A DNA stretch of 64,000 nt. It comes from Antedon mediterranea (taxonomy: Eukaryota; Animalia; Echinodermata). The position numbers and the translations under genes were made by a program. The DNA lies in contig NC_092671.1 in the NCBI RefSeq assembly GCF_964355755.1, forward strand, positions 7,254,001 to 7,318,000, given 5' to 3'. The notes under the pieces are model-generated. The model was not told where the DNA came from. It did no database searches and was given only the letters and a program-made list of their open reading frames with translations. Of this stretch, positions 22,042 to 58,874 are shown piece by piece. The stretch's first letter is position 1; each line of letters begins with the position of its first letter.

Positions 22042-23315
22042 AGATCAGTATCACATATTAAACAGAAGGGAGCATTTTCTTGTCAAACCAATGAGGAGCA
22101 ATATTTGTTAACACTACAGCTAACCCCTATTCATGATATGGGGTATTAGGGGGACAATTCCTGTGAAACAAACAAGCATTAGTATATGTTGTCACACTAC
22201 TGCCTACACTACCCCCTATTAAAGTGATAATTTGTTGAGTTCTGGAGGTGATCTCTTAATATACTGTATGTTCTACTGTATATTCCATTCAGGATTGTGT
22301 GATTTCCTAAACTCTTAATTTTGTTTTTGACAGCAGGAGTTTTTTTTTTCGTCCTTTCTTTGTAAATTTATATTGTTTTAAGAAAATATCTGTTTTCATT
22401 TAATAGTAACATTTTATATTGTAAAGTATACAGTGTGTAAAACTATAGTATATAATATCTATTTTTAATACATAGCCAATATTGTGCACAAATAAATATT
22501 AGTGTAGTTTTTTAGAGGGTAAAATCTTTGTATGGTACAGTATATTGTAACCAGTTGAAGGTGCTTTGCAAGTCTTACTTAAGTAATGGTGAGTCTTAAT
22601 ACTGTGACTGAAGAAGGATACGAACCAAGAACAAATGGCTCTGAGATTGGTAACCAATTAGTACAGGGAAAAAAATACAATTCTGTTACTGATATTTTTA
22701 TTTGAATTTGAAAATCTGAAAAGATATGCATCATCAAGAACAATAAATTCAAGTATGTTATGAAAAAATAAATGTAAATATTAAAAGAATAATTTTAAAC
22801 CTATTTATCTTTTACCAATAACACCAAGAAAGAGTGAATTCATTCTTCCCTGATTGAAACTATACCAAATAAATTATTTGTATATAATAATGTAAATAAT
22901 GAGAAAATGGAGATAGTGCGCATAGTGTCCGTCTAGATTGTTGAACAAATACAAGAGTATGATCACGTTTTAAGTCGCCCCATAAATCTAGATTTGTTTG
23001 TCATTTTGTTTTTTTAATTTTGCGCTTGGGACTATTCCATTTTGTACTGTAGGGATTGTCTTCCTTAAATGTAGTAAATGATTCACGACACTTTATTACT
23101 ATTTTTTATTCTGATCCTACAATAATTTATGAAAGATGATAATGTTTTAAAATTGCATAATGGGAAGTATCACTGCGTTCTTGAAGAAAAAAATAAAAAC
23201 AATATTTCCGTAATAATTTCCTAAAATATCGATGACTTTTATTTGCGCATGGGCGATGAGATGTTTTTTGTTCGCGTGTGTAATTGTTTTTAGTTTCTCT
23301 GTCTCGCTGTATCAA

Positions 23316-25899
23316 ATGGCCACCAAAAAGTACAATTTTCTTTTAAAGTTCGTTATAATAGGAGATAGTCGTGTTGGGAAGAGTTCATTACTGTTGAGAT
23401 TTGTAGATGATACTTTCGACCCGTCGTTTATATGCACAATAGGTAAGAAAAACATGGTTAAAGTAGCTAGGCCTAGCTGAGTGAATCCTCTTCCTTGGGC
23501 AGACGATGCACGTTTCGTATACTGTACAGTAATATAATTAGGTTGACTCAAATCCATGGCGCGCCACCAAGGACAAATCTTAATCGAGTTATTTTATAGT
23601 TTATTTTATAAATGTTGAAATATGTTCTAAACAATGTACTGGTATTCCAGTTTACAATTGGAAGGAAAAGGATGTCTTTTGTTTAAAGAAACGATTTACA
23701 AATTAATGATAAAAGTAAGTACGAGTATTACGATTCTTAATCTTATACAGGTGTAGGTGTTTTTTTACAATAATATATATTGTAATTTTAAGAGGAAATG
23801 GTAATTACAAATACATACCTTGTTTAAAGATGAAATACACACGAAAAATGAATAATATATATATATTTAAATTAAATAAATTATTGTTTTTCTAGGAATT
23901 GATTTCAAGGTTAGGACAATTGAAATAGATGGAAAAAAAGTTAAATTACAAATTTGGTAAGTATGTCAAGTTTTATTGTAAGAATGTAATTTTGCAACAA
24001 TTTTATTTTAAGTAGTTTTTTTACAACAAATTTTTACTATTTTTTTTATATTATTATCTCATGTAAGTTGCAGGTTTCCTGTTAAGTGGGATTTTGTAAA
24101 AGTGAACAAAAATGTTTTAAAAGTTACTATTACAATATGTATAAATGAGAATGAAATAAAACGTTTGATCACAACACTAAAGGAGAAAATGTTACCTCCG
24201 AAGATGCTAAATTAAGTTCTTATGTTTATATTTAGGGATATACCTGGTTCTGAAAGAATAATGTGTCTTATGCCGTCATATTACAGAGGATCAAAGGTAA
24301 TTTCACAGAGTATCAATTTATTGTTTGTCTTTATTATTATTTACGTGTTGACATAATAATTCTTACTATAAACTGTTATTCTTTCAGGGTATTATAGTTG
24401 TATATGACATTACCAACATCAAATCTTTTGAAAACAGTCGAGTATGGCTAGATAATGTTAAAGAGGTGTGTAGATGTAAACGTGTAATATTTAAACTTTA
24501 ATTTGTAAAGATATAATGTATCCAACGATGTAGGTCCTGGTTGAGGTGAGGGAATTAATTAGGTGTCAATTGTTCTTCTTCGCTTTTAGACGGCAAACAG
24601 CTAACATTTGATAATTATTTTTTTTACATTTTCGATTCTCGATTGCAACGTCACCTCTATTTTCTTACGATTCGTTTTTTAATTTGTATTTTGTAGAAAG
24701 CATCAGAAGATGTTGAGTTAATGCTCTTAGGAAACAAATGTGATGAGGAAGATAAACAAGTTTCAGAAGAAGATGGGCAACAAGTAATTAATAACTTACT
24801 AAAACCATTCAGAAAAACAATTGTCGTATTCTAATGGAAACTTTTGTTGAATACTTTTTATATTCGAATTGTAAATTTGTGCTCAACAGAACGTCATTCG
24901 AATAGAAAACGTTGACAACGCAAGCTTTTTCGTTAAGAAGAATCTCAAAGCTCAAAATACTCTCTGAGTACTGTACTCAACGGAAAAAACTGTACTCAAT
25001 GGTAAAAGTCCCACTCGAATACAAAAAATACAATGATGATGGTCCTTAGTTTGGTTCCTTGATTATGGACCACTGTCTAATCAAAGTGAATAACAAAAAA
25101 TGATTTGGATTTAACTTCTTTTTTTAAAGAAAAACATCAATATCTTATAATCACAATAATATACAGTTGAGTAATGATTTTTAAAAAAAATGAATTGTAA
25201 AGCTCCTTCTACACTATCAAAATAGTGACAAAAAAAATGTAATTTGTGACATCACCGTGTCTATTATATTATATTGCTGCATCTCATTTTTTGTCACATA
25301 AAGCCTTTGAAAATATTTGTTTCTTCATTTTCAGTTGGCTGCAGAATATGGAATGAAGTTCATGGAAACAAGTGCAAAGGAAGCTATTAATGTAGAAAAG
25401 GTAAGCCAAGATAAAAGTGATATCTAAGAGAAAATAATGAATAGTCTCTTTCTTTATACAGTAATACTGTATATTCTGTTATTTTCTTTAAGGCATTTAT
25501 CACACTTGCAGAAGATGTATTTGCCAAAATGAGCATGGAATTGGTAAGGATTTTTACAAATAAAAATTATCTTCAAATCAAAATAAGATTTAATTAAGTC
25601 ATAATATTAAGAAAAAAACCTGTTTTTTTAATATACATTCTAAATTGAAATTGTTTATGATCTTGGGTTTTTAAATATTTATATATATATTTATATTTGT
25701 ATTTTATTGTTAACTGTATTTGATGTTGTATTGTTTTATGTTTCAAACCTGTTAGTAGCGGTAATTATCACTGTTGGTTTTGATTGAATAAAATAAAAAT
25801 AAAATAAGATTTTCAATTAGACGTTTTTATTTACAGCAGGAGGCATCACCAGAAAAGAGCACAGAAAAAACAAGAAAATCAGGCTGTTTTGTTCTTTGA
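23316..25899 (+). CDS. Divergent Rab8-like paralog 3
   Basis: Exons 23316-23442, 23896-23956, 24236-24296, 24388-24465, 24697-24783, 25335-25400, 25493-25543, 25837-25899 (CAGCAG tandem acceptor on the last). Motifs [27 protein letters not shown]-terminal CFVL. Intact ORF. Confidence 0.93.
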
Positions 25900-27308
25900 T
25901 TTCATATCAGTGGTTCATGGATTTGTGCGTTGCAGATCTATAAAATAATCTTCCATGATGTCAGATTGATTTAAGTATGCATTAGAATAATATATAAATT
26001 CACTGCTTTTTTAAAACTAAATATCTCTTTGCTTTTAAATTATACATTCGGCGCCATTTATCTCCAGTCGCGGTTCATCTTTTACATCTATATCGATTAT
26101 TGATGACTACACCCAAAAGGTTATACATGCCTACTACAGAATCATCCAGTTTCATAGCATGTTTCGCCAGTCTCAGCCAGTCTCAGCCGTCAAAATGTCA
26201 TACTAGGCCCACTACTAACTGCCCCACTATTAATAACGTACCATTAAATAAAAAATAAATATTCACGAAAAGTTGTCAAGCTGGGTTTAAGTTATTTGTT
26301 TAATATGTTGTTTTGCACGTTAGTCTGAATGCTTGGTGGTTATGATGCTTGGCTACCAATGGGTTCAAGTCCTCTAATATGTCAGGATTTATTCTAATGA
26401 CAAATTTCACTCTCAAAGACTTTGTTTATGTAGAGCATCTTGTGTATGTTTGTGTTGTTTGATAGTGAATGATATTATGGTTATCCTTGGTAATTTGCCT
26501 AAATATATAATAAAACAAAATCAACTTAAATCCTGGGGCAGAAAAATAGGTGCTGGCGACAGTACAGTATATGAATTCCTGATAATACACAAACTCAAAG
26601 TAAAGTTTTCATCCATCCAGTCTATACCAAAGTATCGGGTCGGATCGAAAAAGTACAGTGTTTAAATGAATGTTTGAAATAGAGACATTTCTTACTTTGT
26701 TTATTTAGCCTTGTTTTAGTGTTAAACGATAAATGAAACTACAGTTTATTTGTTATTTTGATAACATTCTAGATTAACTTCTGTGTCATGTTTTGACAAA
26801 GCCTCACACACGAACGTGATTCATTTCACCCGTTGACGACATAAAAAGCAAAACATTTTTTTTGTGCATTTTTTATGTATTATTTATATAATATTCAGGG
26901 TCAAATATTATTTATATTTATTTATTTTGAACATAAACATATGTTTCATTATTATGTATTTCCATTTTATGAAACAAAAAACATTGTGAAAGTTGCAGCG
27001 GTACTTGTATAACAATTCTAGCGATTAGTATCAAATACATCTTTTGAAAGCAGGTAGGGCCTACAGTATGTATCTTTGTTTTTTTATATCAATGAAGAGT
27101 GTCACTTTAAGCGTATTTTCCATTTTATAAAGATTGTAGTCGTATTATTCTCCTTAATATGGTGACGGCAAGTATAGGTCTACTTCTGCGCTATTTTGCA
27201 TGAACACATTAGTTTTGTATTATATTTGGTATAGATAATGGAATGTTTTCAGGATAGGTTTTGCTTCAAGAATCAATGTTAATTAATTTCTTAGTACAGA
27301 TTTGCAAG

Positions 27309-28838
27309 ATGAATCGACTTTTCATTGCATTTGCATATTTCCTGTTTGGAGCAGCAGTCGTAATGTCGGAAGGTTAGAACACTTAAAAATAATAACTGTC
27401 CAAAGAGATTGTACTGTACTATATCAAAGTAGATTGACACCGAAAATTAAAAGTCCCAATACCGTACAAATAGCCTACTATTAGATTTATATCCTATAGT
27501 CTTTTCAATACCTTTCCGAAACTCAGATGTTTCGTTTGGGTGCTTTGTTTAGCTTCAATGCACCATACGTTAAAAAATTTTTAAATGGTGTTTAATCATT
27601 TTAGACCCCTGTAATAGTTGTGGAGATGACCAAATTTGTGACGTATCCGACGACGGTAGCTTCACTTGTATAACACCAGGTAATTACAGTAGAACCTTCG
27701 TTTTGTATTATAATAAATACAGTACATCATAGTTTTCTAGAATTCAACAACCACCGCTATAGGGCTAAACATAGAGATCTTATAGTTCACTACAATATCT
27801 CTATGGTCCAACCGATACTTAGTATTTCGACTAAACAAAATGCACCGTCCATAAATTGAATTCGCACTATAGCTTCTTTGTGAATATTTCTATTGAGAAG
27901 AAAAATATGTTTTTAATTAACTGCTCTTTTTTCTTATTAGAACCTAACCTCGAAGTGTATCAAGGTAAGAATTCATCATGATTTAATTATTGAATTAATA
28001 AATCAGTTGGCGTATTTTGAGGTAACCTTCGTGTATATCGAGCACTCTACCCAGTTGATCTGAATTTATTATATATACATTGCATTGTTGACACACTGAA
28101 AGTTTTATTTTCTTGCATTGAAACCATTGATGCATAAATTATGATTACATAAACAATGTCAAATAATAGTAAGTATACCGTCTGATGATAACAGTGAAGT
28201 ACTGTATATTATTGTCTAAATATATTTTATAATACTGGAGATACAGTACCGAGAAAAATCAAATAATCTTCAGCAGCAAATCATCCTGGAAGTCACTTCG
28301 GTACGTTTAAAAAATAACCTGTAAGGAAAATATTGTGTATTATTTTTCTGTTATCAAAATTCAGGCCTATCAGTAATAGTACAGTTATGTTTTCCTTTCA
28401 GAACATGTTATGCGTAAGTATTACACCTCACTTCAAATAACATACATTCACCGATAACGTCAATAAACTATGATAATTACTGGGAACAGTGTGACGTAAC
28501 CTCAAACATATATGTTTTTTATGTCATACAGGATTTTACTAAATAATGATACGGTAACTTGTGACAAAATATTACTGACAATATAAATAGTGAAAATGAA
28601 AATGGCGTAAACTTGTTTCTAATACCTGCAAATCGCCAAGATAAAACAAATATTGACAGGCCCTATATTAATAGTCTAATTCTAAATTACTTGATGATAT
28701 TTCGTTCGATATTAATTTTTATAAAGGATATCATTTTCCAGAATTAACTTGTTTATTTATTTTTGTATTTCTTTGATAGCTCCTAATGACGCGTTCTTTC
28801 TTACCAACTTGGATATGCCTATGTGGCAGTATGAATGA
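27309..28838 (+). CDS. Secreted micro-exon peptide gene A1 (77 aa, unknown family)
   Basis: Exons 27309-27372, 27605-27679, 27941-27964, 28402-28413, 28780-28838; UTR-exon donor at 27054. Protein MNRLFIAFAYFLFGAAVVMSE-DPCNSCGDDQICDVSDDGSFTCITP-EPNLEVYQ-EHVM-PPNDAFFLTNLDMPMWQYE. Signal-peptide-like N-terminus; all introns phase 1. Confidence 0.8.
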
Positions 28839-30144
28839 GAACATACATTTGATACACAGAGACTTAAGAATAAGCATACAACATCATTTTCTGGCATATA
28901 AACATTTTATTGGAAAAATGAACATTCTAAACGTGTAAACTGCATGTGATTCAATTCCTGCTTTTCTTTTCAAAGTCTTGAATACGTGGCCTCCTTAAAT
29001 TGCCTATCTATTTAGGACATTTAAGTAGATAGAAACACATTTAAATAAATAATACTGCAAATTAGTTTGTGTTGGTGTTTGTTAAGTTTGTCACTGAGTT
29101 TAAAAGCAAGGTGTGTCAAAATAAAGACTTATCGACCACAGGACATCCATGATTTCGATTCAGAATGTTCTGGAAGTCGTACATTTCGGAAATCTTAGTT
29201 TTTTGCAAAGACGCTCAATTACCACCGGTGCAATCACAATAAAATAGAGAAAAGAAGATTATTTTCACTGAATGAATACCAGAGATTTACATTTAATCTG
29301 TAGCATTTATCCATATTTTTTATAGAAAAATTAACTTATTTCTCTATGTCTTTAATTATGGAGGTTTCATTATTATAGCTTATTGAATTTCAGTTGCAAT
29401 TTTACAAAAATAACAAACTAGTAAATCCTAAGATTGTAAATATATCCATTAAAAACTTGATGAATTGACTTTAATTTTGACCATTGTCGTCACACCAAAG
29501 GTGTCATCACAGTAAACCCAACATTTTGATGACTGATTAATTTTATTAAATATAACCATAATGTTATGTAATAATTATTTAGGCCTAGTAACTACTACAA
29601 CGAAAACTTTCATAATAAACGTGGCGTTATAGTTAAAATTAGCAAATAATTAAATTTTATAAAAATTATCTATTCATTTTGAACATAAACATATGTTTCA
29701 TTGTTTATGTATAATTAAATTTATGCAACGAAAAATTGTATGAACGTGCGAGTTTTACATCTACGGTTCGAGTACCAGTATCGTTATTTGAACTGCAGGT
29801 AACTTGAATTTTACTTTATATTAGTCCAATGAAAGGTGGTCTATTTTCCCTGATATCAGCAATATATCGTTAAGTAGTTCACATTTGATAACAAATATTG
29901 TACTATTTATACATTTTAGTGCAAGTTTATACTTGTTATTTTATATTATAAACATACGGTACTTTGATTTCCCAAATTTTAATTGCATTAAAAAAATCTC
30001 TGCTGCATGCTTTCTTAGACATATTTTGGCTATGTGATGTATATATATTTGGTGTATATATATTTGGTGTAGAGAAAGGGTTTGTGAAAACAAATTAGAA
30101 ATGTTTATTCATTTCTGTTTTACTTCAACAGAAACTTTTCCAAG

Positions 30145-31257
30145 ATGAATCGATTTTTTATTGTATTAACATCCCTTTTCATATATGGAGCAGTCAAAGT
30201 CGTAATGTCAAGAGGTATGAAAACGTATTGGCCTAACCAAACGGTCTACAAGCACTCAGCTAAATCTATTGCATAAATTTCAATATTAAAGTACCATTTT
30301 AGACTTTGCAATATATATTTTCTGAAGTTTTTCTGTTCTTTGGGGTGGTTTCCAAAAATGACATATAAGGCTTACACTGGCACCATATTTCACTTATTGC
30401 CATATTACTTTAAATAAGATGATGTTGTTGTTTCTGTTTCAGATGACACTTGTCTCGCGTCCAGTGACAGCCACACTTGTGCGGCAGGTAATGATTTTAT
30501 TTCTAGAATAAAATTTGATTAAGATTGTAGTTTTGATTGAAATTGAAATTATAAGTCTAAGTTATCGTAAATAAACTTTTTTAAATATATAAAATACAGG
30601 TTTCTTAGTTTTTATTTGTTGTTTATTAACATCATTGTCATATAGACATTTTTGTTACAACTCATTGACAAGAAAAATGAAAAATACGTTCTTTCTTTCT
30701 CAATAGAAACTGGCCTTAACGGGTTTGCGTATATCTGTACAGATGGTAATTCGTGTCCACACTACGAAGGTAAGAATTTCTTATTGGGAAAATTTGAGGT
30801 GGGAAACACAAAAATAGCGGTTATGGTCAATGTAAGTTTGTCTGCTTTCTCGAGCCACATGTCTAATAATGAAAAAAAAAAGAAAAGGTTCAGTTAAAAC
30901 GTAATTAGGGGCCTAAGCGAACTTAAATAAAACAGGAAGCACCACTTTTAGTTAATTCAGTATTTTCCTTGATCAGCACAGCGCGTGTAAGACACTCTAT
31001 AAGCAAAAGAAATGTGCACATTCTTAATAGGCATACATTCTATTCTTCTTTCAGAACGATACTTCATTCGTAAGTATCAAAGCTCAATTAAAACTGTCAC
31101 AACAAACAGAAATTATGCATGCAGTCACATTATTAACAATTTATAAGTGAACATTTTTAGGAACTATAAGGCCTAATTTAAAATTATCGAAATTTCTTTC
31201 ACAGCTCCCGGTGACCGTTACTTCCCTCAATTTATTCTTGGAAAGGAAAATAAATAA
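30145..31257 (+). CDS. Secreted micro-exon peptide gene B1 (81 aa)
   Basis: Exons 30145-30214, 30443-30487, 30707-30769, 31055-31069, 31205-31257. Protein MNRFFIVLTSLFIYGAVKVVMSR-DDTCLASSDSHTCAA-ETGLNGFAYICTDGNSCPHYE-ERYFI-PPGDRYFPQFILGKENK. Splice sites conserved in copy B2. Confidence 0.85.
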
Positions 31258-31494
31258 GAACACTCTTTTATCTGAGAACATTATATTTAAATATAAAGCT
31301 AGAAAAGTATACTGTATGGAGACATTAGGCCTACAACAAGCTTAAAGAGAAATTAAACTGTAGAATATTACTTATTTGTATTATGATCTTTAGATAACAA
31401 TTCATTCATTTATAAAGGAATACTGAAAACTCTATTATCATAGAAAACTATGAGGTTTCAAACTTCGTGTGAAATTGGCTCTAATAACCACTAA

Positions 31495-31652
31495 AGCTCT
31501 GTTTACACTATCAAGCTTGATGTGACAAAAGAAATGTGATGTACCCATATATGGACATGATGATGTCTTATCACTACCATATTTGGGTATCACTACCATA
31601 TTTGGGCATATCACACTTTTTTGTCAACTAGTTTGATAATGTAGACAGAGCT
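31495..31652. mobile_element. Family-1 MITE (also carried in the duplicated copies at 33124-33274 and 38799-38951)
   Basis: Same TIRs; same position downstream of each B-type last exon. Confidence 0.85.
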
Positions 31653-32267
31653 ATCAGTCTTTATTCTAAAGTTCCAGTAGTTGTCACTGTGACATTTTCT
31701 AATGCATTTTTTATTCCATTCGTGTTGTGTTGAACGTGATTAAAATTGAATAATTTACAATATGTAACCTTTAGATAGACAATACTTATTTAAATGTATA
31801 ATTATAATCCTATAATTGTTGACATTAAACTGTTGGTTCAAACAATTAATTAACCTTTAAATGTCTTTGTTGCTTAATTAGCACTTCGTAAAATAATTGC
31901 AAAACATGCCACATCATTGTGCCGTTAACCTTTTAAATGCTAATGTGTCATGATAAACCACACCATAACATTTTATTTAAGGTGTTCAAAAACTATCGGT
32001 CCGTATTCCTACGCTTGGAGAATTTATTTTCAAACTGTTTGTATAAATTATGCACGTTACACTATCGAAATTCTTTTAGGTGCTATTAGAAACAGAAACA
32101 AACTAGTAAAGCCGTATAGTTTATTCACCAAAGAAGAACCATATTTTTTAATAGCACCAGTGCGGTGATTATATATAAAGGCCTACCATAACATTGGAAA
32201 GAATAGATTTACCTAAATTGAAGTTCCATATACAGTATGCCGTGACTCATTCATTCATAAACATTAT

Positions 32268-32868
32268 CGGGTTTGCATATATATGTACAGATGGTAATTC
32301 GTGTCAACATAACGAAGGTAAGAATTTCTTATTGGTCTCTAGGTTAGCAGTTTCTTGAGAAATTTGGAAAATTGGAGGTTGGAAACACAAAAATAGCGGT
32401 TATGATCAATGTAAGTTTGTCCGCTTTTTCGAGGCACTACTAATTAAGCGTTTCGTCGAAGAAATGTTCTTTCAAAAAAGAGAAAATTCAGTTAAACGTA
32501 ATTAGGGGCCTAAGCGAACTTAAATAACAGGAACCACCACTTTTAGTTAATTCGGGATTTTCTCTGATCAGCACAGCGCGTGCACAAGACACTCTTGCAT
32601 TTGTATTCTTGTGTTATTCTTAATAGGCCTACATTTTATTCTTCTTTCAGAACGATACTTCATTCGTAAGTATCAAACCTCAATTAAAACTGTCACAACA
32701 AACATAAATTATACATGCAGTCACATTATTAATAATTTATAAGTGAATATTGTTAGGAACTATAGGGCCTAAAATAAAATTATCGAAATTTCTTTCACAG
32801 CTCCCGGTGACCGTTTCTTTCCTATTTTTCTAGATGCTCAATTTATTCTTGGAAAGGAAAATAAATGA
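32268..32868 (+). other. Duplicated 3' module of gene B1 (5'-truncated 63-nt exon, 15-nt micro-exon 32651-32665, last exon 32801-32868); alternative 3' end or gene fragment
   Basis: ~30720-32266 is repeated at ~32268-33880; micro-exon and terminal exon (PPGDRFFPIFLDAQFILGKENK*) keep intact splice sites. Confidence 0.75.
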
Positions 32869-34377
32869 GACCACTGCACTCTTTTATCTGAGATAACATA
32901 ATATTTAAATACAAATATAGAAAAGTATACTGTATGGAGACATTAGGCCTACAACAAGCTTAAAGAGATATTAAACTGTTGAATATCACGTGGCCTTATA
33001 TAGTTTGAATTATGATCTTTAGATAACAATTCATTCATTCATAAAGAAATACTGGAAACTATATTGTCATTGGAAACTTTGAGGTTTCAAACTCCATATG
33101 AAATTGGCTCAAATAGCCATTGAAGCGCTGTTTACTATCAAACTTGATGTGACAAAAAGAATGTACCCATATATGGACATGATGATGTCATATCACTACC
33201 ATATTTGGGTATCACTGCCATATTTGGGCATATCACACTTTTTTTGTCAACTAGTTTGATAGTGTAGACAGCGTTTTAGCCTTTATTCTAATGTTCCATT
33301 AGTGGTCACTGTAACATTTTCTAATGCATTTTTGTTTCCATTCGTGTTGTGTTGAACGTGATCAAAATTGAATAATTTACAATTTTTAACCTTTAGCAGA
33401 CAATACTTATTTAAATGTATTGTAATTATAATCATAAATAATATAATAATAAAAGTATTGGCATCAAACTGTTGGTTCAAAGTAATTAATTAACCTTTAA
33501 ATGTCTTTGTTTCCTAATTAGCACTTCGTAAAATAATTGTAAAACATGACACATCATTGTCTCGTTAACCTTTTAGATGCTAATGTGACTTAATAAACCA
33601 CACCTACGCTGGAAGAATTTATTTTCAAACTGTTTGTATAAATTAATTATGCACGTTACACTATCGAAATTCTTTCAGGTGCTTTTTGAAACAGAAACAA
33701 ACTAGTAAAGCCGCGTAGTTTATTCTTCACCAACTGAGAACCATATCGAACATATTTTGTAATAGCACCAGTGCAGTATTATATAAAAATGAATAGGCCT
33801 ACCATAACATTGGAAAGAATGGATTTTAAATTGAAATTTCATATACAGTATGCCGTGACTCATTCATTCATAAACATTTATTTTTATTAATGGTGCATAG
33901 AAAATAACAATAACAAATTATTAAATAAAGAAGAAATACCATCAATAGAGGATTTTACAAGAAGTAAAACTTGTCACGTAAAACCCTTGGACAAAAAAAA
34001 AATGTGACATCATATAATAAACGGCAAAGCATTGAATTTAAATTTGTTTAAATGATTCATTCGCTTTGAATATATTAACATTGGTTATCATAATGTAATA
34101 ATAATATGCATTTTATAGTGCAACAAAAATGCATATAAAACGTAGCAGCGGTGCTTGCAACTTATTCAAGTGGCGTCTCAGTTGGTATCGACATACTGTT
34201 CTTTTTTGGAAGCAGGTATGTATTTTCCTTTCTTTTACTCGGGAATTACAGTATAGGCCTACTAACTTTCTCTGTTCTTAACTTAAACCATGTTCTCCAC
34301 TGGACGCAAAGCAGGATGTAACGCCATTGACCAATCGTAAGTGACATTTCGATGATCATCGTGTCTGTCTTGGTAAG

Positions 34378-34531
34378 CTTGGTTCCCATTAGGATGCAAC
34401 GCAAGGACGTAGACGCAACGTAAGTGAGTTGACCAATCACAAGCGATGAATTATAAACTGTCGCTTGTCTTTGGTCAACACGCTTGCTTTGCGTTTACGT
34501 CCTTACGTTGCGTCCTAGTGGGAACCAAGCT
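34378..34531. mobile_element. Family-2 MITE (TIR AGCTTGGTTCCCA(C/T)TAG); related pieces at ~34535-34640, ~40085-40280 and 57888-58085
   Basis: Inverted termini and GCAACGCAAGGACGTA internal repeats recur in the window. Confidence 0.7.
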
Positions 34532-34841
34532 TTAGGCAGATGGATTATTCGAACTTACGTCCTTACGATGTCTCCAAATGTGAACCAAGCATTACAGTGT
34601 GCGTACGTCCTTGCGTTGCGTCCGAGTGGAAACCCGAGCTTATTAAGTCACGTAAAACGCAAGTAATTTTCCCAATTAGAAATTAGAGTAGGCCTAACAA
34701 AAACTGATGCGTCCAGTATTCGATTACCTCCCAACAAGGACACACGATTTTGCCATGCTCTTCCACAAACAACATTTTGACTATATCATCTGCATTAAGA
34801 TAATTGGTATTTATTATTTCAATCATCAGAAATTTTCAAAG

Positions 34842-36090
34842 ATGAATCGACTTTTCATTATATTGACAATTCTTGTCCTGTGTGAGGGAGTTGTATGGTG
34901 TCAAGGTAAGCATGAACGTCATAAAACGTGCAACATTGCGACTCACAGTCACAGCTCTTTACTTTATTAAAAATGTATGCTTCCATAATTGTGCTCGCAA
35001 GCAAAACAAATTAAAATCCATATTACGTTACAGTACATAATTATGAAATTTTGATTTCACCATACCATTTTCTTACCAAAGATATTGAACTTTCACTAAT
35101 TGTCTGCCTCTTAGATCCTCCTTGTGAGCCTGGTGATGCCGCCTGCGATAATACAGGTAAAAATTCCTTTTGTTTATAATATTGAGCGAAATCTGTCGAT
35201 AATTATGAAATTTAAATTCTCAAAGCCAACATTATGATTTCACCAAAGAATTTGAACTTTCACTAATCGTTTCCTTTGTAGATCCTCGTTGTGAGCCTGG
35301 TGATGCCGACTGCGATAATACAAGTACAAATTTCTTTTGTTTATAATATAAATAATAATAATAATAAATCTGTCAAAGCCTACAATCTGAAAATGACATT
35401 TACATTTAACAATTTTATGTTCTGTATTTATTAAATGTAGGCCTATTTACATACTGCTTCAATAAAAACAAAATATAGTAAATATTAGAGTTCTCACGTC
35501 AAAATCAGTATTCAGTCCAAATCAGAGATGCTTATTGTCATTTAATGCCAACAAATTTAACAGTATAGGCCTATTATAGATTATCGTCCAACTAACGTCG
35601 ATCATAAGATATTATAATAATATTATAGTACTATCAGTAATAGTACAGTTATGTTTTCCTTTCAGGACATGGTATCTGTAAGTATTACACCTCACTTCAA
35701 ATTAACATACACACTTTTTCATCGATAATGTCAATAACTATGATAATTACTGGCAACAGTGTGAGTTAACTTCAACATATGTATGTACATTTTTATGTCA
35801 TACAAGATTTTACTAAATGATGATACGGTAATTTGTGACAAAATAAGTAGCCTAGTACTGACAATATAATTAGTGAAAATGAAAATGGTGTAAACTTTTT
35901 CTAATACATGCAAATCGCCAAGATAAAACAAATATTGACAGGCCCTATATTAATTAGTCTAATTCTAAATTACTTAGTGATATTTCGTTCGATATTTATT
36001 TTTATAAAGGACTTTTTCATTTATTTTTTTATTTCTTTGATAGATCCTGAATTGCTTGGGCTTGGGCCTATGCCTCATCCTCTGTGGTAG
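34842..36090 (+). CDS. Secreted micro-exon peptide gene C1, chimeric C-5'/A-3' (68 aa)
   Basis: Exons 34842-34905, 35115-35156, 35282-35323, 35666-35677, 36044-36090. Protein MNRLFIILTILVLCEGVVWCQ-DPPCEPGDAACDNT-DPRCEPGDADCDNT-RHGI-YPELLGLGPMPHPLW. TATAAAA at ~34134; UTR-exon donor at 34216. Confidence 0.8.
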
Positions 36091-37168
36091 TATAAATGAG
36101 CACATTCTTTTCAAAGTCTTGAATACGTGGCCTCCTTAAATTGCCTTATTATCTATGACATTTAAATAGATAGAAACACATTTAAAATAAAGAATACTGC
36201 AAATTAATTTGTGTTGGTGTTTGTTAAGTTTGTCACTGGGTTTAAAAAGCAAGGTATGTCAAATTAAAGACTTCTCGAGCACAGGACATCCATGATTTCT
36301 ATTCAGAATGTTCTAAAGTTGTACATTTCGGAAATCTTTCTTAGTTTTTTTGCAAACAGAAGAAGCTCGAATACCACCGGTGCAATCACAATAAATTAGA
36401 GAATAGAAGATTATTTTCACTGAATGAATACCTAGGATTTACATTTAATCTGTAGCATTCATCCATATTTTGTATAGAAAAATTAACTTATTTCTCTATG
36501 TCTTTAATTATGGAGGTTTCACTAGTAAATCCTAAGATTGTAAATATATCCATTAAAAACTTGATGAATTGACTTTAATTTTGACCATTGTCGTCACACT
36601 ATAAAGTGTCATCACAGTAAACACAACATTTTTATGACTGATTAATTTTATTTAACATAACCATAATGGTTGCTACGTAATAATGATTACATAATACACT
36701 AATACAACAAAAACAAACTTGGCAACGCGGGGGTTGTACAACTTAAATGTCGCGTTATAATTGGCAAATAATTTAATTTGTTTACAAATTATTTATTCAT
36801 TTTGAACATAAACATATGTTTCATAAATTGTTTATGTATAATTAAATCTATGCAACGAAAATTGTGTGAACGTGCAAGTTTTACGTCTACGGTTCGAGTA
36901 CCAGTATCGTTGTTTGAAAGCAGGTAATTTGAATTTTACTTTATTTTAGACCACTGAAAGGTGGTCCATTTATCCTGATCTCAGAAATATCGTTAAGTAG
37001 TTCACATTTGATAAAATATATTGTACTATTTATACATTTTAGTGAAAGTTTATACTTGTTATTTTATATTATACAACTACGGTACTTTAATTTCCCAAAT
37101 TGTAATCGCATTAAAAAAAATCTCTACTGCATTTATTTCTGTCTTACTTCAACAGAAACTTTTCCAAG

Positions 37169-38548
37169 ATGAATCGATTGTTGATTGTATTGACATTCCT
37201 TTTCCTATATTATGGAGGAGTTAAAGTCGTAATGTCAAGAGGTATGAAAACGTATTGGCCTAACCAAACGGTCTATAAACACTCAGCTAAATCTAATGCA
37301 TAAATTCCAATATTAAAGTATCATTTTAGACTTTCTAGTATATTTTCTGAAGCTTTTCTGTTCTTTAGGATGGTTTCAGAAAATGGCATAGGCCTACATA
37401 GTCTGGGTTTCAGACGGAGTTTTGTCTTAATATTAGTTAAAAGATAAATATTTTGGCACACATGGCGTTTCATACGTATACTACTTGATTTTGGATACTA
37501 CTGTATTTTCAGACAAAAATCGCGGTCGAAATAAAAACAAATAAATTTAAAAAAAAGATAATACAGACTTGGGGCAAGTCTAAGGCCTACAGTGGCACCA
37601 TATTTCACTTATTGCCATATTACCTTAAATAAGATGTTGTTTCTGTTTCAGATGACACTTGTCTCGCGTCCAGTGACAGCCACACTTGTGCAGCAGGTAA
37701 TGATTTTATTTATAGAATAGCAATTGATTAAGATTGAAATGATAAGCCTTAGTTATCGTAAATAAACTTTTTTAATAGTTGATTTCTTTTTTAAGAAGTC
37801 CCGTTATCAATCAATAACACATGTCTTTTTTTATTTGTTGTTTATTAACGTCATTGCCAGGCCTATAGACATTTTTGTTACAACCCATTGACAAGAAAAC
37901 TGAAAAATATGTTCTTTCTTTCTCAATAGAAACTGGCCTTAACGGGTTTGCATATATCTGTACAGATGATAATTCGTGTCCGCACTACGAAGGTAAGAAT
38001 TTCTTATTGGTCTCTAGGTTAGCAGTTTCTTGAAAAATTGGGAAAATTTGAGGTGGGAAACACAAAAATAGCGTTTATGATCAATGTAAGTTTGTCCGCT
38101 TTTTCGAGCCACTAATAATGAAGCATTTCGTCGAAGAAATGTTCTTTGAAAAAAAGAGAAAATTCAGTTAAACGTAATTAGGGGCCTAAGCAAACTTAAA
38201 TAAAACAGGAACCACCACTTTTACAGTAGTTAATTCGGAATTTTCGTTGATTAGCACAGCGCGTGGAAGACACCCTGTCTGTGTCTTGAGTTATTCTTAA
38301 TATGCCCTACATTCTATTCTTCTTTCAGAACGAGACTTCTTGCGTAAGTATCAAACCTCGATTAAAACTGTCACAACAAACAGAAATTATACATGCAGTC
38401 ACATTATTAATAATTTATAAGGACAGACATTTTTAGGAACTATAGGGCCTAATTTAAAATTATCGAAATTTCTTTCACAGCTCCCGGTGACCGTTTCTTT
38501 CCTAGTCTTCTAGATGCTCAATTTATTCTTGGAAAGGAAAATAAATGA
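37169..38548 (+). CDS. Secreted micro-exon peptide gene B2 (87 aa)
   Basis: Exons 37169-37241, 37652-37696, 37930-37992, 38329-38343, 38481-38548. Protein MNRLLIVLTFLFLYYGGVKVVMSR-DDTCLASSDSHTCAA-ETGLNGFAYICTDDNSCPHYE-ERDFL-PPGDRFFPSLLDAQFILGKENK. Confidence 0.85.
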
Positions 38549-40486
38549 GAACATTGCACTCTTTGTGTCTGAGATAACATTATATTTAAATATAAATGTA
38601 GAAAAGTATACTGTATGGAGACATTAGGCCTACAACAAGCTTAAAGAGAAATTAAACTGTCGAATATTACGTGGTCTTATATAGTTTGTATTATGATAGA
38701 TAACAATTTATTCATTTATAAAAGAATACTGGAAACTATATTGTCATAGAAAACTGAGGTTTCAAACTTCGTGTGAAATTGGCTCAAATAGCCAGTAAAG
38801 CTCTGTCTACACTATCAAACTTGATGTGACAAAAAGAATGTACCCATATATGGACATGATGATGTCATATCACTACCATATTTGGGTATCACTACCATAT
38901 TTGGGCATATCACACTTTTTTTGTCAACTAGTTTGATAGTGTAGACAGCGTTTTAGCCTTTATTCCAATGTTCCATTAGTGGTCACTGTAACATTTTCTA
39001 ATGCATTTTTGTTTCCATTCGTGTTGTGTTGAACGTGATCAAAATTGAATAATTTACAATTTTTAACCTTTAGCAGACAATACTTATTTAAATGTATTGT
39101 AATTATAATCATAAATAATATAATGATAAAAGTATTGGCATCAAACTGTTGGTTCAAAGTAATTAATTAACCTTTAAATGTCTTTGTTTCCTAATTAGCA
39201 CTTCGTAAAATAATTGCAAAACATGACAAATCATTGTCTCGTTAACCTTTTAGATGCTAATGTGTCATGATAAACCACACCATAACATTTGTTTAAGGTG
39301 TTCAAAAACTATAGATCCGTATTCCTACGCTGGAAGAATTTATTTTCAAACTGTTTGTATAAATTATGCACATTATTACACTATCGAAATTCTTTCAGGT
39401 GCTATTTGAAACTAGTAAAGCCGCGTAGTTTATTCTTCACCAACTGAGAACCATATCGAAGCATTTGTTAATAGCACCAGTGCAATGATTATATATAAAG
39501 GCCTACCATAAATTGGAAAGAATAGATTTACCTAATTTGAAGTTTCATATACAGTATGCCGTGACTCATTCATTCATAAACATTTGTTTTTATTAATGGT
39601 GTATAGAAAATAACAATAACAAATTAAATAAAGAAGAAATATACCATTAATAGAGGATTTTACAAGAAGTAAAACTTGTCACATAAAACCGACGACAAAA
39701 AAACCGTGACATATAATAAACGGCAAAGCATTGAATTTAAATTTGTTTAAATGATTCATTCGCTTTGAATATATTAACATTGGTTATGATAATGTAAAAA
39801 AAATGCATATAAAACGTAGCAGCGGTGCTTGCAACTTATTCAAGTGGCGTCTCGGTTGCATCGATATTACTATTCTTTTTTGGAAGCAGGTATGTATTTT
39901 TCTTTCTTGGCATTTTCCGGTCATTTTTGACTAAAATGTCCCATTAGACTGAATATAAATGTATACCTTCTAATCAATTTGAGACTAAAATTACCTTGCT
40001 GTGACCAGTAGCCAAGCCAAAAATGATTGTTTGACCACTCTACTCTAAATCAATTTCGTACTCGGTAATTATACTGACTTTCCATTTCATTGTAATTAAC
40101 TTAAACCATGGTCTCCATTGGACGCAAAGCAAGGTGAAACTCCATTGACCAATCAAAAATGACATTTCTATGATCATCAGCAGATGGATTATTCGAACTT
40201 ACATCCTTACGTTGTCTACAAGTGTAACCAAGCATTACAGTGCGCGTACGTCCTTGCGTTGCGAGTGGAAACCAAGCTTATTTATTCACGTAAAGACAAC
40301 GCGTAAAACGCAAATAATTTTCCCAATTAGAAATTAGAGTAGGCCTAGGCCTAACTACAACCGATGCGTCCAGTACTCAACATGGACAAACGATTTAGCC
40401 ATGCTCTTCTACAAACAACATTTTGACTATCATCTGCATTTAAGATAATTGGTATTTAATATTTCAATCAGCAGCAATTTTCAAAG

Positions 40487-41200
40487 ATGAATCGACTTTT
40501 CATTATATTGACAATTCTTGTCCTGTGTGGGGGAGTCGTATGGTGTAAAGGTAAGCATTAACGTCACAAAATGTGCAACATTATGATTTCACCATACCAC
40601 TTTCTTACCAAAGATGTTGAACTTTCACTAACTGTCTGTTTTGTAGATCCTCCTTGTCAGCCTGGTGATGCCGTTTGCGATAAAACAAGTAAAAATTCCT
40701 TATGTTTATAATATTTAGCGAAATCTGTAGAAGCCTACAATCTGAATTGTATTGGGAAGGGTTTTAACAAACTTGCTATAGGTCATAAAAACAAATTGTC
40801 TGAATGCTTGTAGGCCTACTCTAGCCTTGCTAAACCCAATTGTATTGTAATCAACATTTCTGATTTTTTTTTTCAGAAGAAAAAGAAAGTGGTAAGTCAA
40901 TTATGTTCTGTATTTATTAAATGTAGGCCTATTTACATACTGCTTCAATAAAAACAAAATATAGTAAACATTAGAGTTCTCACGTCAGAATCAGTATTCA
41001 GTTCAAATGAGAGATGCTTAATGTCATTTAATGCCATATATAGGCCTATAGCTTATCGTCCAACTAACGTCGATCATAAGATTTTCCTAAGAATGCACCT
41101 AGGAATGGGACTTCGGAAACTGACCATATTTATTATATTTACAGGCCTCGACAAATCTGCTCTTTTTTTAAGCAGAGGAGATGCTCAAAGAAGAAAATAG
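40487..41200 (+). CDS. Secreted micro-exon peptide gene C2 (58 aa)
   Basis: Exons 40487-40550, 40647-40688, 40877-40891, 41145-41200. Protein MNRLFIILTILVLCGGVVWCK-DPPCQPGDAVCDKT-KEKES-GLDKSALFLSRGDAQRRK. AATAAA at ~41224. Confidence 0.78.
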
Positions 41201-41543
41201 TGACTTTCTTTCTTTCATTAACAAATAAAAGTGCGAGTTAGAAATTGTTTTTTTATTTATTCAGAAGACTGAAGAAAAATGAAGATTAATTAAATCAGAC
41301 CTTGAATATGTTATTTTGTAGTTTTAATAAAGTTAATCACTTCCGTAAAAGAAACACACACAAAAAAATGTTTTCACTTATAAAATGACAAAATAAATGG
41401 TTAAAATCAAGACTGAAGAACTTATGTTGTTTTAATTTTAAAGAATGTTTTTAAGGGAGGGCGCTGTATTATTTTTTATTACGATTCAACGACGACGAGA
41501 TCGTCACGAGAGGAACCACCGCCGCCCAGCGCGACACACAAAC

Positions 41544-43050
<1,507 letters not shown>

Positions 43051-44531: not shown

Positions 44532-46272
44532 TTATGACTTATAATAGTCATACATATTTACGTCACCAAATATTGATTTCATTATTGATCCATTTTTCTT
44601 AGCCCGCCCTCTATTTCTCATGGTCTTTTCCGTACATTTTTTGCATTTGCAATATGGCACATGGTCAAAATATGAAAACGCAAAAGACCGAGAAATTTGG
44701 CTTCCCATAAATGAAGTGTCTGTTTGACGCCTACTGCGGGCAACTGCTAATGCGTTCACATAAGCGTCACGCCACGTATCTTCTGACGCATCCTTTAAAG
44801 TGGATCCTTTTACGTCGTTTATTTCCGAGTCCATTTCGCTTTCGTCTGAATCTTCCGTTTCATCTGTGTGGTCACTTTCTGAATTTGATTGCATATCGGT
44901 ATCATCAAAATGTTCGGTACGCGTTTGTTCCTCCTGATGCGTTCCCTTATCTTCATATTCATTGATTTTCAACGCTTCTTTATCTGTAAACAATTCAGTC
45001 GATGATGTTTCATCGTTTGCGGTGCTTTTTTCGACTGGCGTACTAACCAGCAGTTTGGGCCTTGAATTCTGACTAGAATTGTTTCTTGCGTGATTACCTT
45101 TGCTACATGATGCCAGGTCTACATTATGTGGAATTTCTGTATCTGTTTTACTTCCAATAATATCTTTTAAATCATCAGTCACCGGTAAATTGTACTCCGA
45201 TTGTCTATGCGTATACCGAAATGTGGTTGAATTACCTTTTTTGTTTGTTTCTGTTGAGATTTTAGGTAGTTTTACACTATGTTGCGAGCCATTTCCTTCT
45301 CCATGAGTAGACTTGTACATGTTCTTATCGGAGTATCTTAAGTTGGTTTTCAATTTTTTTCTTTTTTCGTCAAACTTATTTAACTCATCGTGTATTGCAC
45401 TTACTTTTAGAGGACCGCTTACATTAGTTTTCCATGAATTGTTTCGATTTTTTAAAGTAGGCCTACTGTGATCATAAACAGTATCTGTTGATGGCTTTCT
45501 TTGTAATCCGGTTGACGTTGATTGAGACGACGGTGACATCAAAGTGAAACCTTTAAGTGACCGAATTTTAACGTTCGTTAAGCCTCTTGAGTTATACAGT
45601 TGCCACGTTTCTTCGTCTACATTGTGTATTTTTGGCAAGAAATTTCCTAAATTATTTGACAAAAGCCGTCGGGAAACCTTCTGAGAAAGTGATTTTTTAT
45701 CTACGTCAGCACCTCCTATACAATGTATGACTGGAAATGCGTTTGCATTGTTGCCGTCTCCATTGCGTTGTGTCAATGGTACATACTGTTTACCTGTGTA
45801 TTTGGCGTATAAGTGTTTTATACCGTTAATATCTGGTAAGGATATATTTTGAGATTCTGTTGCAACATCTTCTGTGTTGTTGCTAGCCAACGAACGCCAT
45901 GGTCGATTCGTCAAATAATTGTACTTGATGTGATTGTAATATGCACTTTTTGGTTGGATCGAATGATACCTCTGTGTTAAAAGAAACAAAATGATAGAAT
46001 AAACATCCTATCATATTCAAAGAAACAAACTGATGGATAACAAACAATGCCTCTGCACAAAGACGACAAAGGGCTTTTGTCTTGCAATGAATTTATCAAA
46101 ATGTAATATAAAACTAATGAACAAAACAAACTACCTGAAAGCGTGCCGAATAATTTAATAAAAATCGTAATGAATAAATGGATCTAATATTCCTCTGCAT
46201 AATAACTTAATATAAAGGTAATCGATATATATATTTTTATGAATAACTCAATTGTTTTTTTTAACCGTTTTA

Positions 46273-57409: not shown

Positions 57410-58874
57410 ATTTTATACTTATCATGTTATTGTTTATTAAGAAATTGCAGTATTAATGAAGTTAGATTCACTAGATGATAATAAATATAAACAAATATGT
57501 ATTGAAGTTGTCCTTATTTGATTAATTTAGTAGAAAAGTGAGGTGTAATACTCTTTTTGAAATTAATTATGTTAAAATTGTTACCTATCTCAAAATAATG
57601 AAATACATTTAAATATTTTCAATGGTATATTTGATATTTTAAAATGTGCCATATTTATACAAAGAGTTTATTGTTAGTGGGCGTTTATTTGAGGGCGCTT
57701 TTATACTTTTTTATTGGGTGTAAAATTATAACATACTCAAATAACCCCGGCCCCCACCCCCTTGAAAATCGACAACAATTGGTTAAGTAGAGCAGTCACA
57801 CCGTACCCTGATGTTAAACACGTAAACAATGAGAACATGAACCATGGAACTATAATTTATAGGTCCACGCACTTTTCGCTTTGTTAAAGCTTGGTTCCCA
57901 CTAGAACGTAACGCAAGGACGTAAACGCAACGCAAGCGTTTTAACCAATGACAAGCGAAGTTATAGACAGTTAGCAATCACAAGCGAATAAGCCATCGCT
58001 TGTGATTGGTTAATTCACTTGCGTTGCGTTACGTTCTTGTGTTGCGTTGCGTTACGTTCTTGTGTTGCGTCGCTAGTGGGAACATTGTTTGTTCTCACCC
58101 AAAATGAACCATTATTGTTTCTTTATTTTTTGTCAACAATCTTTCTTTGCGGAATGACGATTATATTCACATTATTGGCAGAGTTTTAAATATATAATTG
58201 AATTAGAAACCATCCATATCTACTGTAGAACCTATTGAATAGAGATTTGCCATTGTTGTTTTTATAAAGTTCATAGCTCGATCAGTTATATCATGGACCT
58301 ATACATTTATAGGTTCATGGTTATATACATTGTTCTCCCTCGCTGTAGCTGTAAGCACAGGATCTCATGCATTCATAACGATACAAAAGATACGCATGAA
58401 GTTTATATTTTCACAAAAATCAAGGACAAGTTATTTGAAAAGTAAAGAGTATTATTTTGTGTAATCATGTACAGTTAGATACGAAGACGTATATAAACGT
58501 GAAATAAATAATTCCAATATACTACCACCAGATCTCCCTTCACTCTCGTGTATGAAATTAAATTTAGGCTAGAGAACTTTTAAAATCCTTCACTCGTTTG
58601 GTATGTACGTTTTTTAGTTAATTGTATTATACTAAAATGTAAATAAGAGAATGTCATTTCACAATACTCGCGCGTGTGTACATTTGTTTAACAATATTTG
58701 TGTGTGATGCATATTGTCAATACATAGAATATAGATATAGTTATTCTTGACTTCTGCTCGTCTTTTGAATAATCTTCCAAATAGCCATTTTATTCTTATG
58801 ATGATTTACCCCTGATTTTTAAATTGCAAATTACAGATTTAGAATTCTATAAACGCGGCTATCCAATGTCTGCA

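What the first reader, a model, noticed from the sequence alone, without database searches (positions are those of the whole stretch)
26900..41250. Unrecognised tandem family of secreted peptides built from symmetric micro-exons
Seen: five genes (A1, B1, C1, B2, C2) share a non-coding exon ending in GCAG|GT and a signal-peptide exon starting CAAGATGAATCGA or AAAGATGAATCGA (MNR..). Internal exons are 75, 24, 12, 45, 63, 15 or 42 nt, all phase 1-1 and multiples of 3. Each Cys-containing exon carries an even number of Cys, so it could be a self-contained disulfide loop. The genes are essentially invisible in the ORF track. Known: this architecture parallels schistosome micro-exon genes and allows frame-preserving skipping or shuffling. 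Inference: a modular, combinatorial secreted-peptide system (defence, toxin, adhesion or signalling) that I cannot assign to any family.
Basis: partly seen in the sequence, partly recalled or inferred. Interest (0 to 1): 0.88.

Follow-up and report, generated by a model that had tools for sequence, protein, structure and literature searches.

The report
Feather-star mix-and-match secreted peptide genes
A feather star carries five related genes in a row that build small, acidic, predicted-secreted peptides from short frame-preserving exons, with database gene models that skip one tiny exon and one gene likely fused from two others, so they likely supply a varied set of defence or recognition peptides of a family with no relative found outside this species.

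Summary
Five tandem genes share a 5' exon and a signal-peptide exon, and all 14 predicted internal exons (12-75 nt) are phase 1-1. The organism is the crinoid Antedon mediterranea.

B1 and B2 are already in RefSeq as uncharacterized proteins. All 5 isoforms match my exon models exactly; both genes have an isoform that skips the 15-nt exon in frame. Contig edges in one run fit splicing of A1 (inferred). C1 looks like a chimera, a C-type 5' half on an A-type 3' half, made by one tandem duplication with intronic breakpoints.

No relative outside Antedon and no family match was found. The genes are not schistosome MEGs: only 6 of 14 internal exons are under 36 nt, and phase-1 symmetry is common in secreted animal proteins. 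Full combinatorial splicing is not shown. The mature peptides are acidic (pI 4.05-4.55) and lack dibasic sites.

Best guess: a lineage-restricted, diversifying secreted defence or recognition peptide family; function untested. The scan noted MEG-like genes on other DNA, not this family.

The parts
26990..27053 (+). A1 upstream (5' UTR) exon; start approximate, donor GCAG|GT
   Evidence: no in-frame upstream ATG
27300..27372 (+). A1 signal-peptide exon (ATG at 27309; 21 codons; phase-1 end)
27605..27679 (+). A1 75-nt exon, 4 Cys (spacing 2, 5, 9), acidic
   Evidence: X1 record 1 edge fits its splice to the 24-nt exon (inferred)
27941..27964 (+). A1 24-nt micro-exon
   Evidence: (acceptor and donor above the 98th percentile)
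28402..28413 (+). A1 12-nt micro-exon
   Evidence: 42 = 6+24+12 unlaid letters of X1 record 3 (inferred)
28780..28838 (+). A1 last coding exon (Pro/aromatic tail, stop), followed by 3' UTR
   Evidence: the match of X1 record 3 stops exactly at 28780
29740..29798 (+). B1 upstream exon (true start not determined; RefSeq opens its ORF at 29740)
30132..30214 (+). B1 signal-peptide exon (ATG at 30145)
   Evidence: RefSeq XP_071942111.1
30443..30487 (+). B1 45-nt exon, 2 Cys (C-x8-C)
30707..30769 (+). B1 63-nt exon, 2 Cys (C-x5-C); RefSeq X1 reads through its donor to a stop at 30897
31055..31069 (+). B1 15-nt cassette micro-exon, skipped in RefSeq isoform X3
31205..31257 (+). B1 last coding exon (G-K near the end)
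32264..33030 (+). B1dup: partial duplicate of the B 3' half (63-nt exon without its acceptor, 15-nt exon 32651-32665, last exon 32801-32868); no signal-peptide exon; possible alternative 3' end for B1
34160..34215 (+). C1 upstream exon (start approximate; TATA-like box at 34134)
34830..34905 (+). C1 signal-peptide exon (ATG at 34842)
35115..35156 (+). C1 42-nt exon a, 2 Cys (C-x6-C)
35282..35323 (+). C1 42-nt exon b, tandem copy of exon a with a weak donor; unverified
35613..35631 (.). Inferred duplication junction: sequence is C2-like to the left and A1-like to the right
35666..35677 (+). C1 12-nt micro-exon (copy of the A1 12-nt exon; 4 of 12 bases differ)
36044..36090 (+). C1 last coding exon (diverged copy of the A1 last exon, stop 3 codons earlier)
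36850..36923 (+). B2 upstream exon (true start not determined; RefSeq opens its ORF at 36850)
37156..37241 (+). B2 signal-peptide exon (ATG at 37169)
37652..37696 (+). B2 45-nt exon
37930..37992 (+). B2 63-nt exon; a second donor lies 93 nt downstream (38085)
38329..38343 (+). B2 15-nt cassette micro-exon, skipped in RefSeq isoform X2
38481..38548 (+). B2 last coding exon
39834..39889 (+). C2 upstream exon (start approximate; TATA-like box at 39808)
40475..40550 (+). C2 signal-peptide exon (ATG at 40487)
40647..40688 (+). C2 42-nt exon, 2 Cys
40877..40891 (+). C2 15-nt candidate exon (strong sites; absent from C1)
41176..41330 (+). C2 last exon candidates (acceptors at 41176 or 41265); unresolved

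Best explanation
This is a tandem family of five feather-star genes that encode small, acidic, Cys-containing, predicted-secreted peptides from short phase-1 exons, and the peptides likely act outside the cell as a diversifying set of defence or recognition effectors. Shown: the exon layout, and RefSeq isoforms of B1 and B2 with and without the 15-nt exon. Inferred: each peptide reads signal peptide, acidic disulfide loop(s), short optional spacer, Pro/aromatic tail. Because every coding intron is phase 1, three routes give new variants without breaking the frame. (1) Skipping of the spacer micro-exon. (2) Duplication of a loop exon (C1). (3) Swapping of gene halves: one tandem duplication with breakpoints in an A intron (about 28367) and a C intron (about 41085) would turn A-B-C into A-B-[C5'/A3']-B-C and so create C1, whose A-derived exons then diverged. 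Speculative: the function (release in epidermal mucus or coelomic fluid, binding foreign surfaces or deterring grazers and symbionts). Confidence is about 0.9 in the gene architecture, 0.75 in the chimera and 0.4 in the defence or recognition role.
For: Architecture; 5 of 5 RefSeq isoforms reproduced letter for letter from the exon models; frame-preserving skip in both B genes. A1: in run X1, record 3 matches 28780-28993 and stops exactly at the predicted acceptor with 42 further letters (6+24+12). Record 1 starts with 4 unlaid letters, AG and the 24-nt exon, 30 letters in all, as a 31-mer graph fork at a splice joint would give (inferred, the letters were not shown). A B2-like X1 piece begins exactly at the last-exon acceptor 32801 (table 3). 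One family: the five signal exons align (70-95% identity in the pairs listed), and the A1 and B2 mature regions align better than 2000 of 2000 shuffles. Chimera: blocks 28367-30008 match 35631-37132, and 35415-35613 match 40901-41085 (alignment). Divergence of A1 against C1: 22 of 58 exon sites differ against 21 of 380 intron sites (Fisher p = 1e-10). Lineage restriction: the only credible hits are Antedon's own (1 of 4 hits, the other 3 unrelated repeat proteins; 2 of 2). By analogy, a taxon-restricted, duplicated, secreted Cys-rich family with a fast mature region is the pattern of MgCRP-I (PMC4558851 passages).
Against: No tissue, induction or activity data. The peptides are acidic (pI 4.05-4.55), unlike most cationic antimicrobial peptides. 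Fast exon change appears in only 1 of 7 paralogue comparisons: B1/B2 mature exons differ at 10 of 176 sites against 56 of 678 in introns. The A1/C1 excess depends on the alignment: with cheap gaps it is 10 events in 59 nt against an intron mean of 4.8 and maximum of 9 per 57 nt. Across 8 short exon pairs N:S is 15:7, no excess over neutral. Only one exon is skipped in the annotated isoforms, and X1 record 3 runs unbroken through the A1 last-exon start, so no A1 skip is visible (contigs drop rare forms). The C loop module is not shown to be homologous to A or B (684 and 1701 of 2000 shuffles score as high). RefSeq models are computed; I did not see their read support. No signal-peptide predictor was run (hydrophobicity only).
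Confidence: 0.42

Rival explanations
1. Signalling peptides (pheromone, gamete attractant or hormone-like). The Cys loops or the C-terminal tail would be the ligand. In B, cleavage at single Arg residues and at the G-K near the end would release a short amidated peptide, and skipping the 15-nt exon removes one of those Arg sites.
For: Signal peptide and small size; G-K in both B tails; the skipped exon carries an Arg; species-restricted tandem copies would suit recognition signals. That echinoderm sperm-activating peptides include short Cys-loop forms is recalled, not from a call.
Against: No dibasic site in any of the 7 models. A1 and C1 lack the Gly-basic end. 0 of 6 protein motifs and no full-match Antedon DNA motif in the crinoid neuropeptide tables of PMC9793003 (one 9-base match lay in an unrelated Florometra precursor). 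No paper held with sperm-activating peptides, echinoderm and crinoid together.
Confidence: 0.25
2. Acidic extracellular-matrix or skeleton-associated peptides that bind Ca2+ or collagen and tune stereom growth, ligament stiffness or adhesion.
For: 9-12 Asp/Glu against 0-4 Lys/Arg in the four complete mature peptides; Asp next to Cys in every loop; crinoids are calcified and have mutable connective tissue (general knowledge).
Against: No lectin, EGF, LDLa or TSP3 match. Very small size. Recent duplication and chimerism suit a changing target more than a mineral.
Confidence: 0.2
3. One or two real genes plus neutral duplication debris. Symmetric exons simply reflect the phase-1 bias of secreted proteins, the skips are splicing noise, and C1, C2 and B1dup are decaying copies.
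For: Class 1-1 is the normal class for secreted modules (PMC8001218). B1dup is truncated. The second 42-nt exon of C1 has a weak donor, and C2 has a weak signal-exon acceptor and no clear last exon. N:S of 15:7 is near neutral.
Against: All five starts keep ATG, the hydrophobic stretch and Cys pairs. The same exon is skipped in both B paralogues. The A1/C1 exons differ more than their introns under both alignments.
Confidence: 0.13

Closest known systems
Schistosome micro-exon genes (MEGs); PMC4671649, PMC4350168, PMC10526429 (passages read)
   Same: Signal peptide in a longer 5' exon, a longer last exon, symmetric short internal exons, small secreted products, tandem copies, in-frame exon skipping.
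   Different: Only 2-3 internal exons per gene; 6 of 14 under 36 nt; Cys pairs confined within exons; no sequence similarity; free-living deuterostome. MEGs are described as apparently restricted to flatworms.
Lepidopteran X-tox proteins (known to me only from one passage in PMC4558851)
   Same: Secreted proteins whose Cys motifs are encoded by separate exons.
   Different: X-tox motifs are defensin-like; the loops here have 2 or 4 Cys, match no family and come 1-2 per gene.
Mussel MgCRP-I cysteine-rich peptides (PMC4558851 passages)
   Same: Taxon-restricted secreted Cys-rich peptide family; non-coding first exon; phase-1 intron after the signal exon; gene duplication; function unknown.
   Different: MgCRP-I are pre-pro-peptides with a dibasic site, usually cationic, with six Cys in one last exon, at 67 or more loci. 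These are acidic, lack dibasic sites and spread the mature part over 3-4 exons.
Class 1-1 exon-shuffled extracellular modules (PMC8001218 passages)
   Same: Phase-1 intron at the signal-peptide boundary and phase 1-1 modules that can be duplicated or shuffled.
   Different: The modules here are 4-25 residues, far below a folded domain. The A1 75-nt exon resembles half an EGF module by eye but has no Pfam or PDB support.
Crinoid neuropeptide precursors, including PCNP1-20 (PMC9793003: abstract, passages, section 7, supplements searched)
   Same: Same species; small secreted precursors, some with 2 or 4 Cys.
   Different: Those precursors were chosen for basic cleavage sites; none contains the motifs searched.

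Membership tests
Schistosome MEG class | Signal peptide mostly in the long 5' exon | tested here: met
   21-24 codon exon, best 11-residue hydropathy 2.3-3.4, ends at a phase-1 intron; no SignalP run
Schistosome MEG class | Central coding part mostly micro-exons under 36 bp (PMC4671649) | tested here: not met
   6 of 14 internal exons; 6-16% of the coding sequence in the 4 complete genes. All fall within the wider 6-81 bp range given in PMC10526429
Schistosome MEG class | Mostly symmetric exons | tested here: met
   14 of 14 predicted internal exons
Schistosome MEG class | Pool of isoforms from alternative splicing | tested here: inconclusive
   One skipped exon in B1 and in B2, plus one read-through form, in RefSeq; no multi-exon combinatorics seen; raw reads not available
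Schistosome MEG class | Sequence kinship with MEG families; flatworm origin | tested here: not met
   No MEG hit; the organism is a crinoid
Neuropeptide precursors | Peptides bounded by dibasic cleavage sites | tested here: not met
   0 dibasic sites in 7 of 7 mature models
Neuropeptide precursors | C-terminal Gly plus basic residue for amidation | tested here: inconclusive
   G-K in B1 and B2 only
Neuropeptide precursors | Neural expression and a processed peptide | not testable with these tools
   No tissue data
Cationic Cys-rich antimicrobial or toxin-like peptides (MgCRP-I type) | Net positive mature peptide, pro-region with dibasic site, six Cys in one exon | tested here: not met
   pI 4.05-4.55, 2-4 Cys, split over exons
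Cationic Cys-rich antimicrobial or toxin-like peptides (MgCRP-I type) | Conserved signal region with accelerated change in the mature region | tested here: inconclusive
   Clear only for A1/C1 and alignment-dependent; absent in B1/B2
EGF-like module | Six Cys and a Pfam EGF match | tested here: not met
   4 Cys; no EGF hit at E up to 10

The most novel reading that the evidence does not exclude
A free-living deuterostome has independently evolved a MEG-like peptide-diversifying cassette in which each disulfide loop, spacer and tail is a swappable exon. Skipping, loop duplication and in-frame gene fusion would then yield a tissue-regulated peptide library, and the 15-nt exon would act as a switch on proteolytic release of an amidated tail. 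C1 would be an exon-shuffling event caught shortly after it happened, followed by adaptive change of the acquired tail.
Probability: 0.2. Interest if true: 0.75.

Novelty: new variant of a known kind. Interest (0 to 1): 0.5.

Why it matters
The locus gives a compact, testable case of how new secreted peptides arise: five genes in 14 kb show annotated micro-exon skipping, exon duplication and a likely in-frame chimera side by side. It also exposes a likely annotation blind spot. The five RefSeq isoforms found are all 100 residues or longer because of upstream extensions that differ between the paralogues, and A1 (77 aa) was not found among proteins of 25-81 residues. Crinoid secreted peptides other than neuropeptides returned little in my literature searches. 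If regulated combinatorial splicing is confirmed, the MEG-type design would extend beyond parasitic flatworms to a free-living echinoderm.

Tried and rejected
No whole genome is held, so further paralogues elsewhere in the genome were not searched. Within the window no extra copy was found.

Run search: no RNA holder listed on record; X1 is only guessed to be RNA. Its joint table was filled by repeat elements (15 rows shown, 469 not shown), so no splice joint was listed outright. X1 record 4, which ends at 29792, was dropped as splice evidence because a piece of run X4 ends at the same place. Contig depth was not used to rank genes.

Family searches gave nothing credible: Pfam on single exons and stored isoforms (best for a family member IL12p40_C at E = 0.054), PDB sequences, Rfam. 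Atlas: no usable hit for the mature part of B1; for B2 one spider-toxin cluster at 0.76, a level shuffled proteins often reach, and structure rows all under the bar. AlphaFold2 on the 5 RefSeq isoforms gave pLDDT 42 and pTM 0.24, so no fold search was run and disulfide pairing is untested.

Resemblances noticed by eye and rejected for lack of support (all recalled motifs): half-EGF for the A1 75-nt exon, an NG-peptide-like word in the 63-nt exon (no Gly-basic site follows it), a thrombospondin type-3-like word in the 42-nt exon.

DeMarco et al. 2010 is not held. The supplement 'store' gave no answer; the 7 mirror files were searched, and figures are not held.
Full report
Setting. The window is AT-rich animal DNA. 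A neighbouring ORF (44532-46007, minus strand) is 100% identical to an NCBI protein of Antedon mediterranea and 37% identical to one of Anneissia japonica, so the source is a feather star (Crinoidea). The array lies between Ras-family (Rab-like) GTPase exons and HINT1, whose first exon starts at 41544.

Observation. The start motif AAGATGAATCG occurs 5 times in 64 kb, all on the + strand. Each start is preceded by an exon ending GCAG|GT. It is followed by a hydrophobic 21-24 codon stretch that ends at a phase-1 intron. The internal exons are 75/24/12 (A1), 45/63/15 (B1, B2), 42/42/12 (C1) and 42/15 (C2). All 14 are multiples of three. Introns are 96-614 nt (from the coordinates). From the MNR start the products are 77, 81, 68 and 87 residues for A1, B1, C1 and B2; the end of C2 is unresolved (42 or 57 residues). 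A splice-site scan with a recalled generic matrix finds 9 strong exon candidates on the + strand (7 of 9 multiples of three), none on the - strand, and a mean of 1.4 (maximum 4) in 30 shuffles. Weak points are the donor of the second 42-nt exon of C1 (73rd percentile) and the signal-exon acceptor of C2 (75th).

Independent support, B genes. A search of 1.84 billion representatives with the 63-nt exon of B1 returned 4 hits. One is B1 itself, a RefSeq 'uncharacterized protein' with three isoforms; the other three are unrelated repeat proteins. B2 has two isoforms. All 5 isoforms are reproduced letter for letter from my exon models: B1 full, B1 without the 15-nt exon, B1 reading through the 63-nt donor, B2 full, and B2 without the 15-nt exon. 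RefSeq opens both ORFs in the upstream exon. The two extensions are unrelated in sequence although the upstream exons are 91% identical, and A1 has no such ATG. I therefore take MNR as the true start (inference). These are computed models; I did not see their read support.

Independent support, A1. Run X1 (guessed RNA, assembled contigs) was laid on 26800-37300. Record 3 matches 28780-28993. It stops exactly at the predicted last-exon acceptor and has 42 further letters. Record 1 begins with 4 unlaid letters, then AG and the 24-nt exon, and runs on into the intron. In a 31-mer graph the shared node would be 6 bases of the 75-nt exon plus the 24-nt exon (30 letters), and adding the 12-nt exon gives 42. 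The other end of record 3 coincides with the first 30-mer shared between the A1 and C1 3' UTRs (28964-28993), which fits the same graph logic. This is inference from edges: the unlaid letters were not printed and the joint table was swamped by repeats. A B2-like X1 piece starts exactly at the last-exon acceptor 32801. Another (contig depth 411) runs from 30 nt before the 63-nt donor to a second donor 93 nt downstream. That fits a fork at the normal donor plus an extended exon, echoing the RefSeq read-through form, but its neighbours do not show similar depth and I cannot place it.

One family and how it grew. The signal exons align with one another. The A1 and B2 mature regions align better than all 2000 shuffles, with three Cys, a Tyr-x-Glu word and the Pro-Pro start of the last exon in register. 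The C loop exon is not demonstrably related to A or B. Self-alignment shows A1's 3' half plus B1 repeated as C1's 3' half plus B2, and B1dup plus C1's 5' half repeated as B2's 3' part plus C2. The intron of C1 is C2-like up to about 35613 and A1-like from 35631. The simplest reading is one tandem duplication with breakpoints in an A intron and a C intron, which made C1 an in-frame chimera because all introns are phase 1. C1 also has a doubled loop exon and lacks the 15-nt exon of C2. A1's last exon still matches B's (E = 0.004) while C1's does not, so C1 is the derived copy. The A1/C1 exons differ at 22 of 58 sites against 21 of 380 in introns. With cheaper gaps the excess shrinks to 10 events against an intron mean of 4.8 and maximum of 9 per window, and the 12-nt exon has 4 differences, reached by 2% of intron windows. 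The other 6 of 7 comparisons show no clear excess, and N:S over 8 short exon pairs is 15:7. Accelerated change is thus suggested for one pair only.

What the peptides are like. Mature parts are 21-63 residues, with 2-4 Cys, pI 4.05-4.55, no dibasic site, and G-K near the end in B only. Nothing credible was found in Pfam, PDB sequences, the Atlas or the 5.8-billion collection beyond Antedon (near lengths only). The structure model is uninformative. They are not among the catalogued crinoid neuropeptide precursors by the motifs searched.

Mechanism. Shown or annotated: layout, B isoforms, paralogy. Inferred: secretion, A1 splicing, the C1 chimera, loop-per-exon disulfides. Speculative: function. 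I put 0.42 on an extracellular defence or recognition role, 0.25 on signalling, 0.2 on a matrix or mineral role and 0.13 on mostly neutral debris. The defence reading rests on analogy (orphan status, recent duplication, chimerism, some fast change) and is weakened by the acidic charge.

Comparison. The family works like a small MEG: signal exon, symmetric short exons, in-frame skipping. It is not one. MEGs have a central part mostly of exons under 36 bp (PMC4671649, passages) and are described as apparently flatworm-restricted (PMC4350168, passages). Here 6 of 14 internal exons qualify and there is no homology. Phase-1 introns at the signal-peptide boundary and class 1-1 modules are the usual pattern in secreted animal proteins (PMC8001218, passages), which lowers the surprise. 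MgCRP-I and X-tox are precedents for orphan Cys-rich secreted families and for one-motif-per-exon design (PMC4558851, passages). None of my 10 literature searches listed a paper on this family; most were seen as listings only, and subscription journals are not covered. Earlier scan notes include a MEG-like gene in a fungus and cassette-exon receptor genes in this genome, unchecked by me; none concerns this locus.

Verdict. The feature is real and the family is undescribed as far as searched. Exon skipping and probable shuffling are present on a small scale; a combinatorial library is not shown and function is open. New variant of a known kind; interest 0.5.

Noticed in passing
window 5880-6218, 7789-8016, 23217-23480: Three separate Ras-family (Rab8-like by recall) first coding exons in tandem on the + strand; two look diverged from the canonical one at 7840 (Pfam Ras hits). 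Possible local Rab expansion.
   Followed up: partly
window 41544 onward: HINT1 starts only about 650 nt after the last clear exon of C2, which leaves little room for the 3' end of C2.
   Followed up: partly
window 32288-32410 (B2 equivalent 37963-38085): An X1 contig piece of depth 411 spans the end of the 63-nt exon to a second donor 93 nt downstream. In B2 this extension contains a stop. Neighbouring pieces do not show similar depth; unexplained.
   Followed up: partly
window 31490-31650, 33110-33280, 38790-38955 (also near 10310, 11850, 21160, 52400, 53700, 54850): A palindromic element of about 160 nt, MITE-like, with very high contig depth in all three runs. It sits downstream of every B copy.
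   Followed up: no
window 34375-34532: A second high-copy inverted-repeat element in the first intron of C1, largely absent from C2, with a further copy near 57885-58045.
   Followed up: no
window 30770-30799: The intron just after the 63-nt exon of B1 encodes a short word resembling the end of the B tail (F-x-L-G-K), so the RefSeq read-through isoform carries a similar motif. Possibly chance.
   Followed up: no
window 44532-46007 (-): Large single-exon ORF of an uncharacterized protein, with one Anneissia homologue (37%) and no credible Pfam family.
   Followed up: partly
window 58875-60599 (-): 574-codon ORF with an internal 27-nt tandem repeat and no Pfam hit at E up to 1; by eye it may derive from a transposase.
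   Followed up: no
window 17948-19611: Two oppositely oriented GC-rich 15-nt minisatellites flank a 22-nt minisatellite, like the ends of a foldback element.
   Followed up: no
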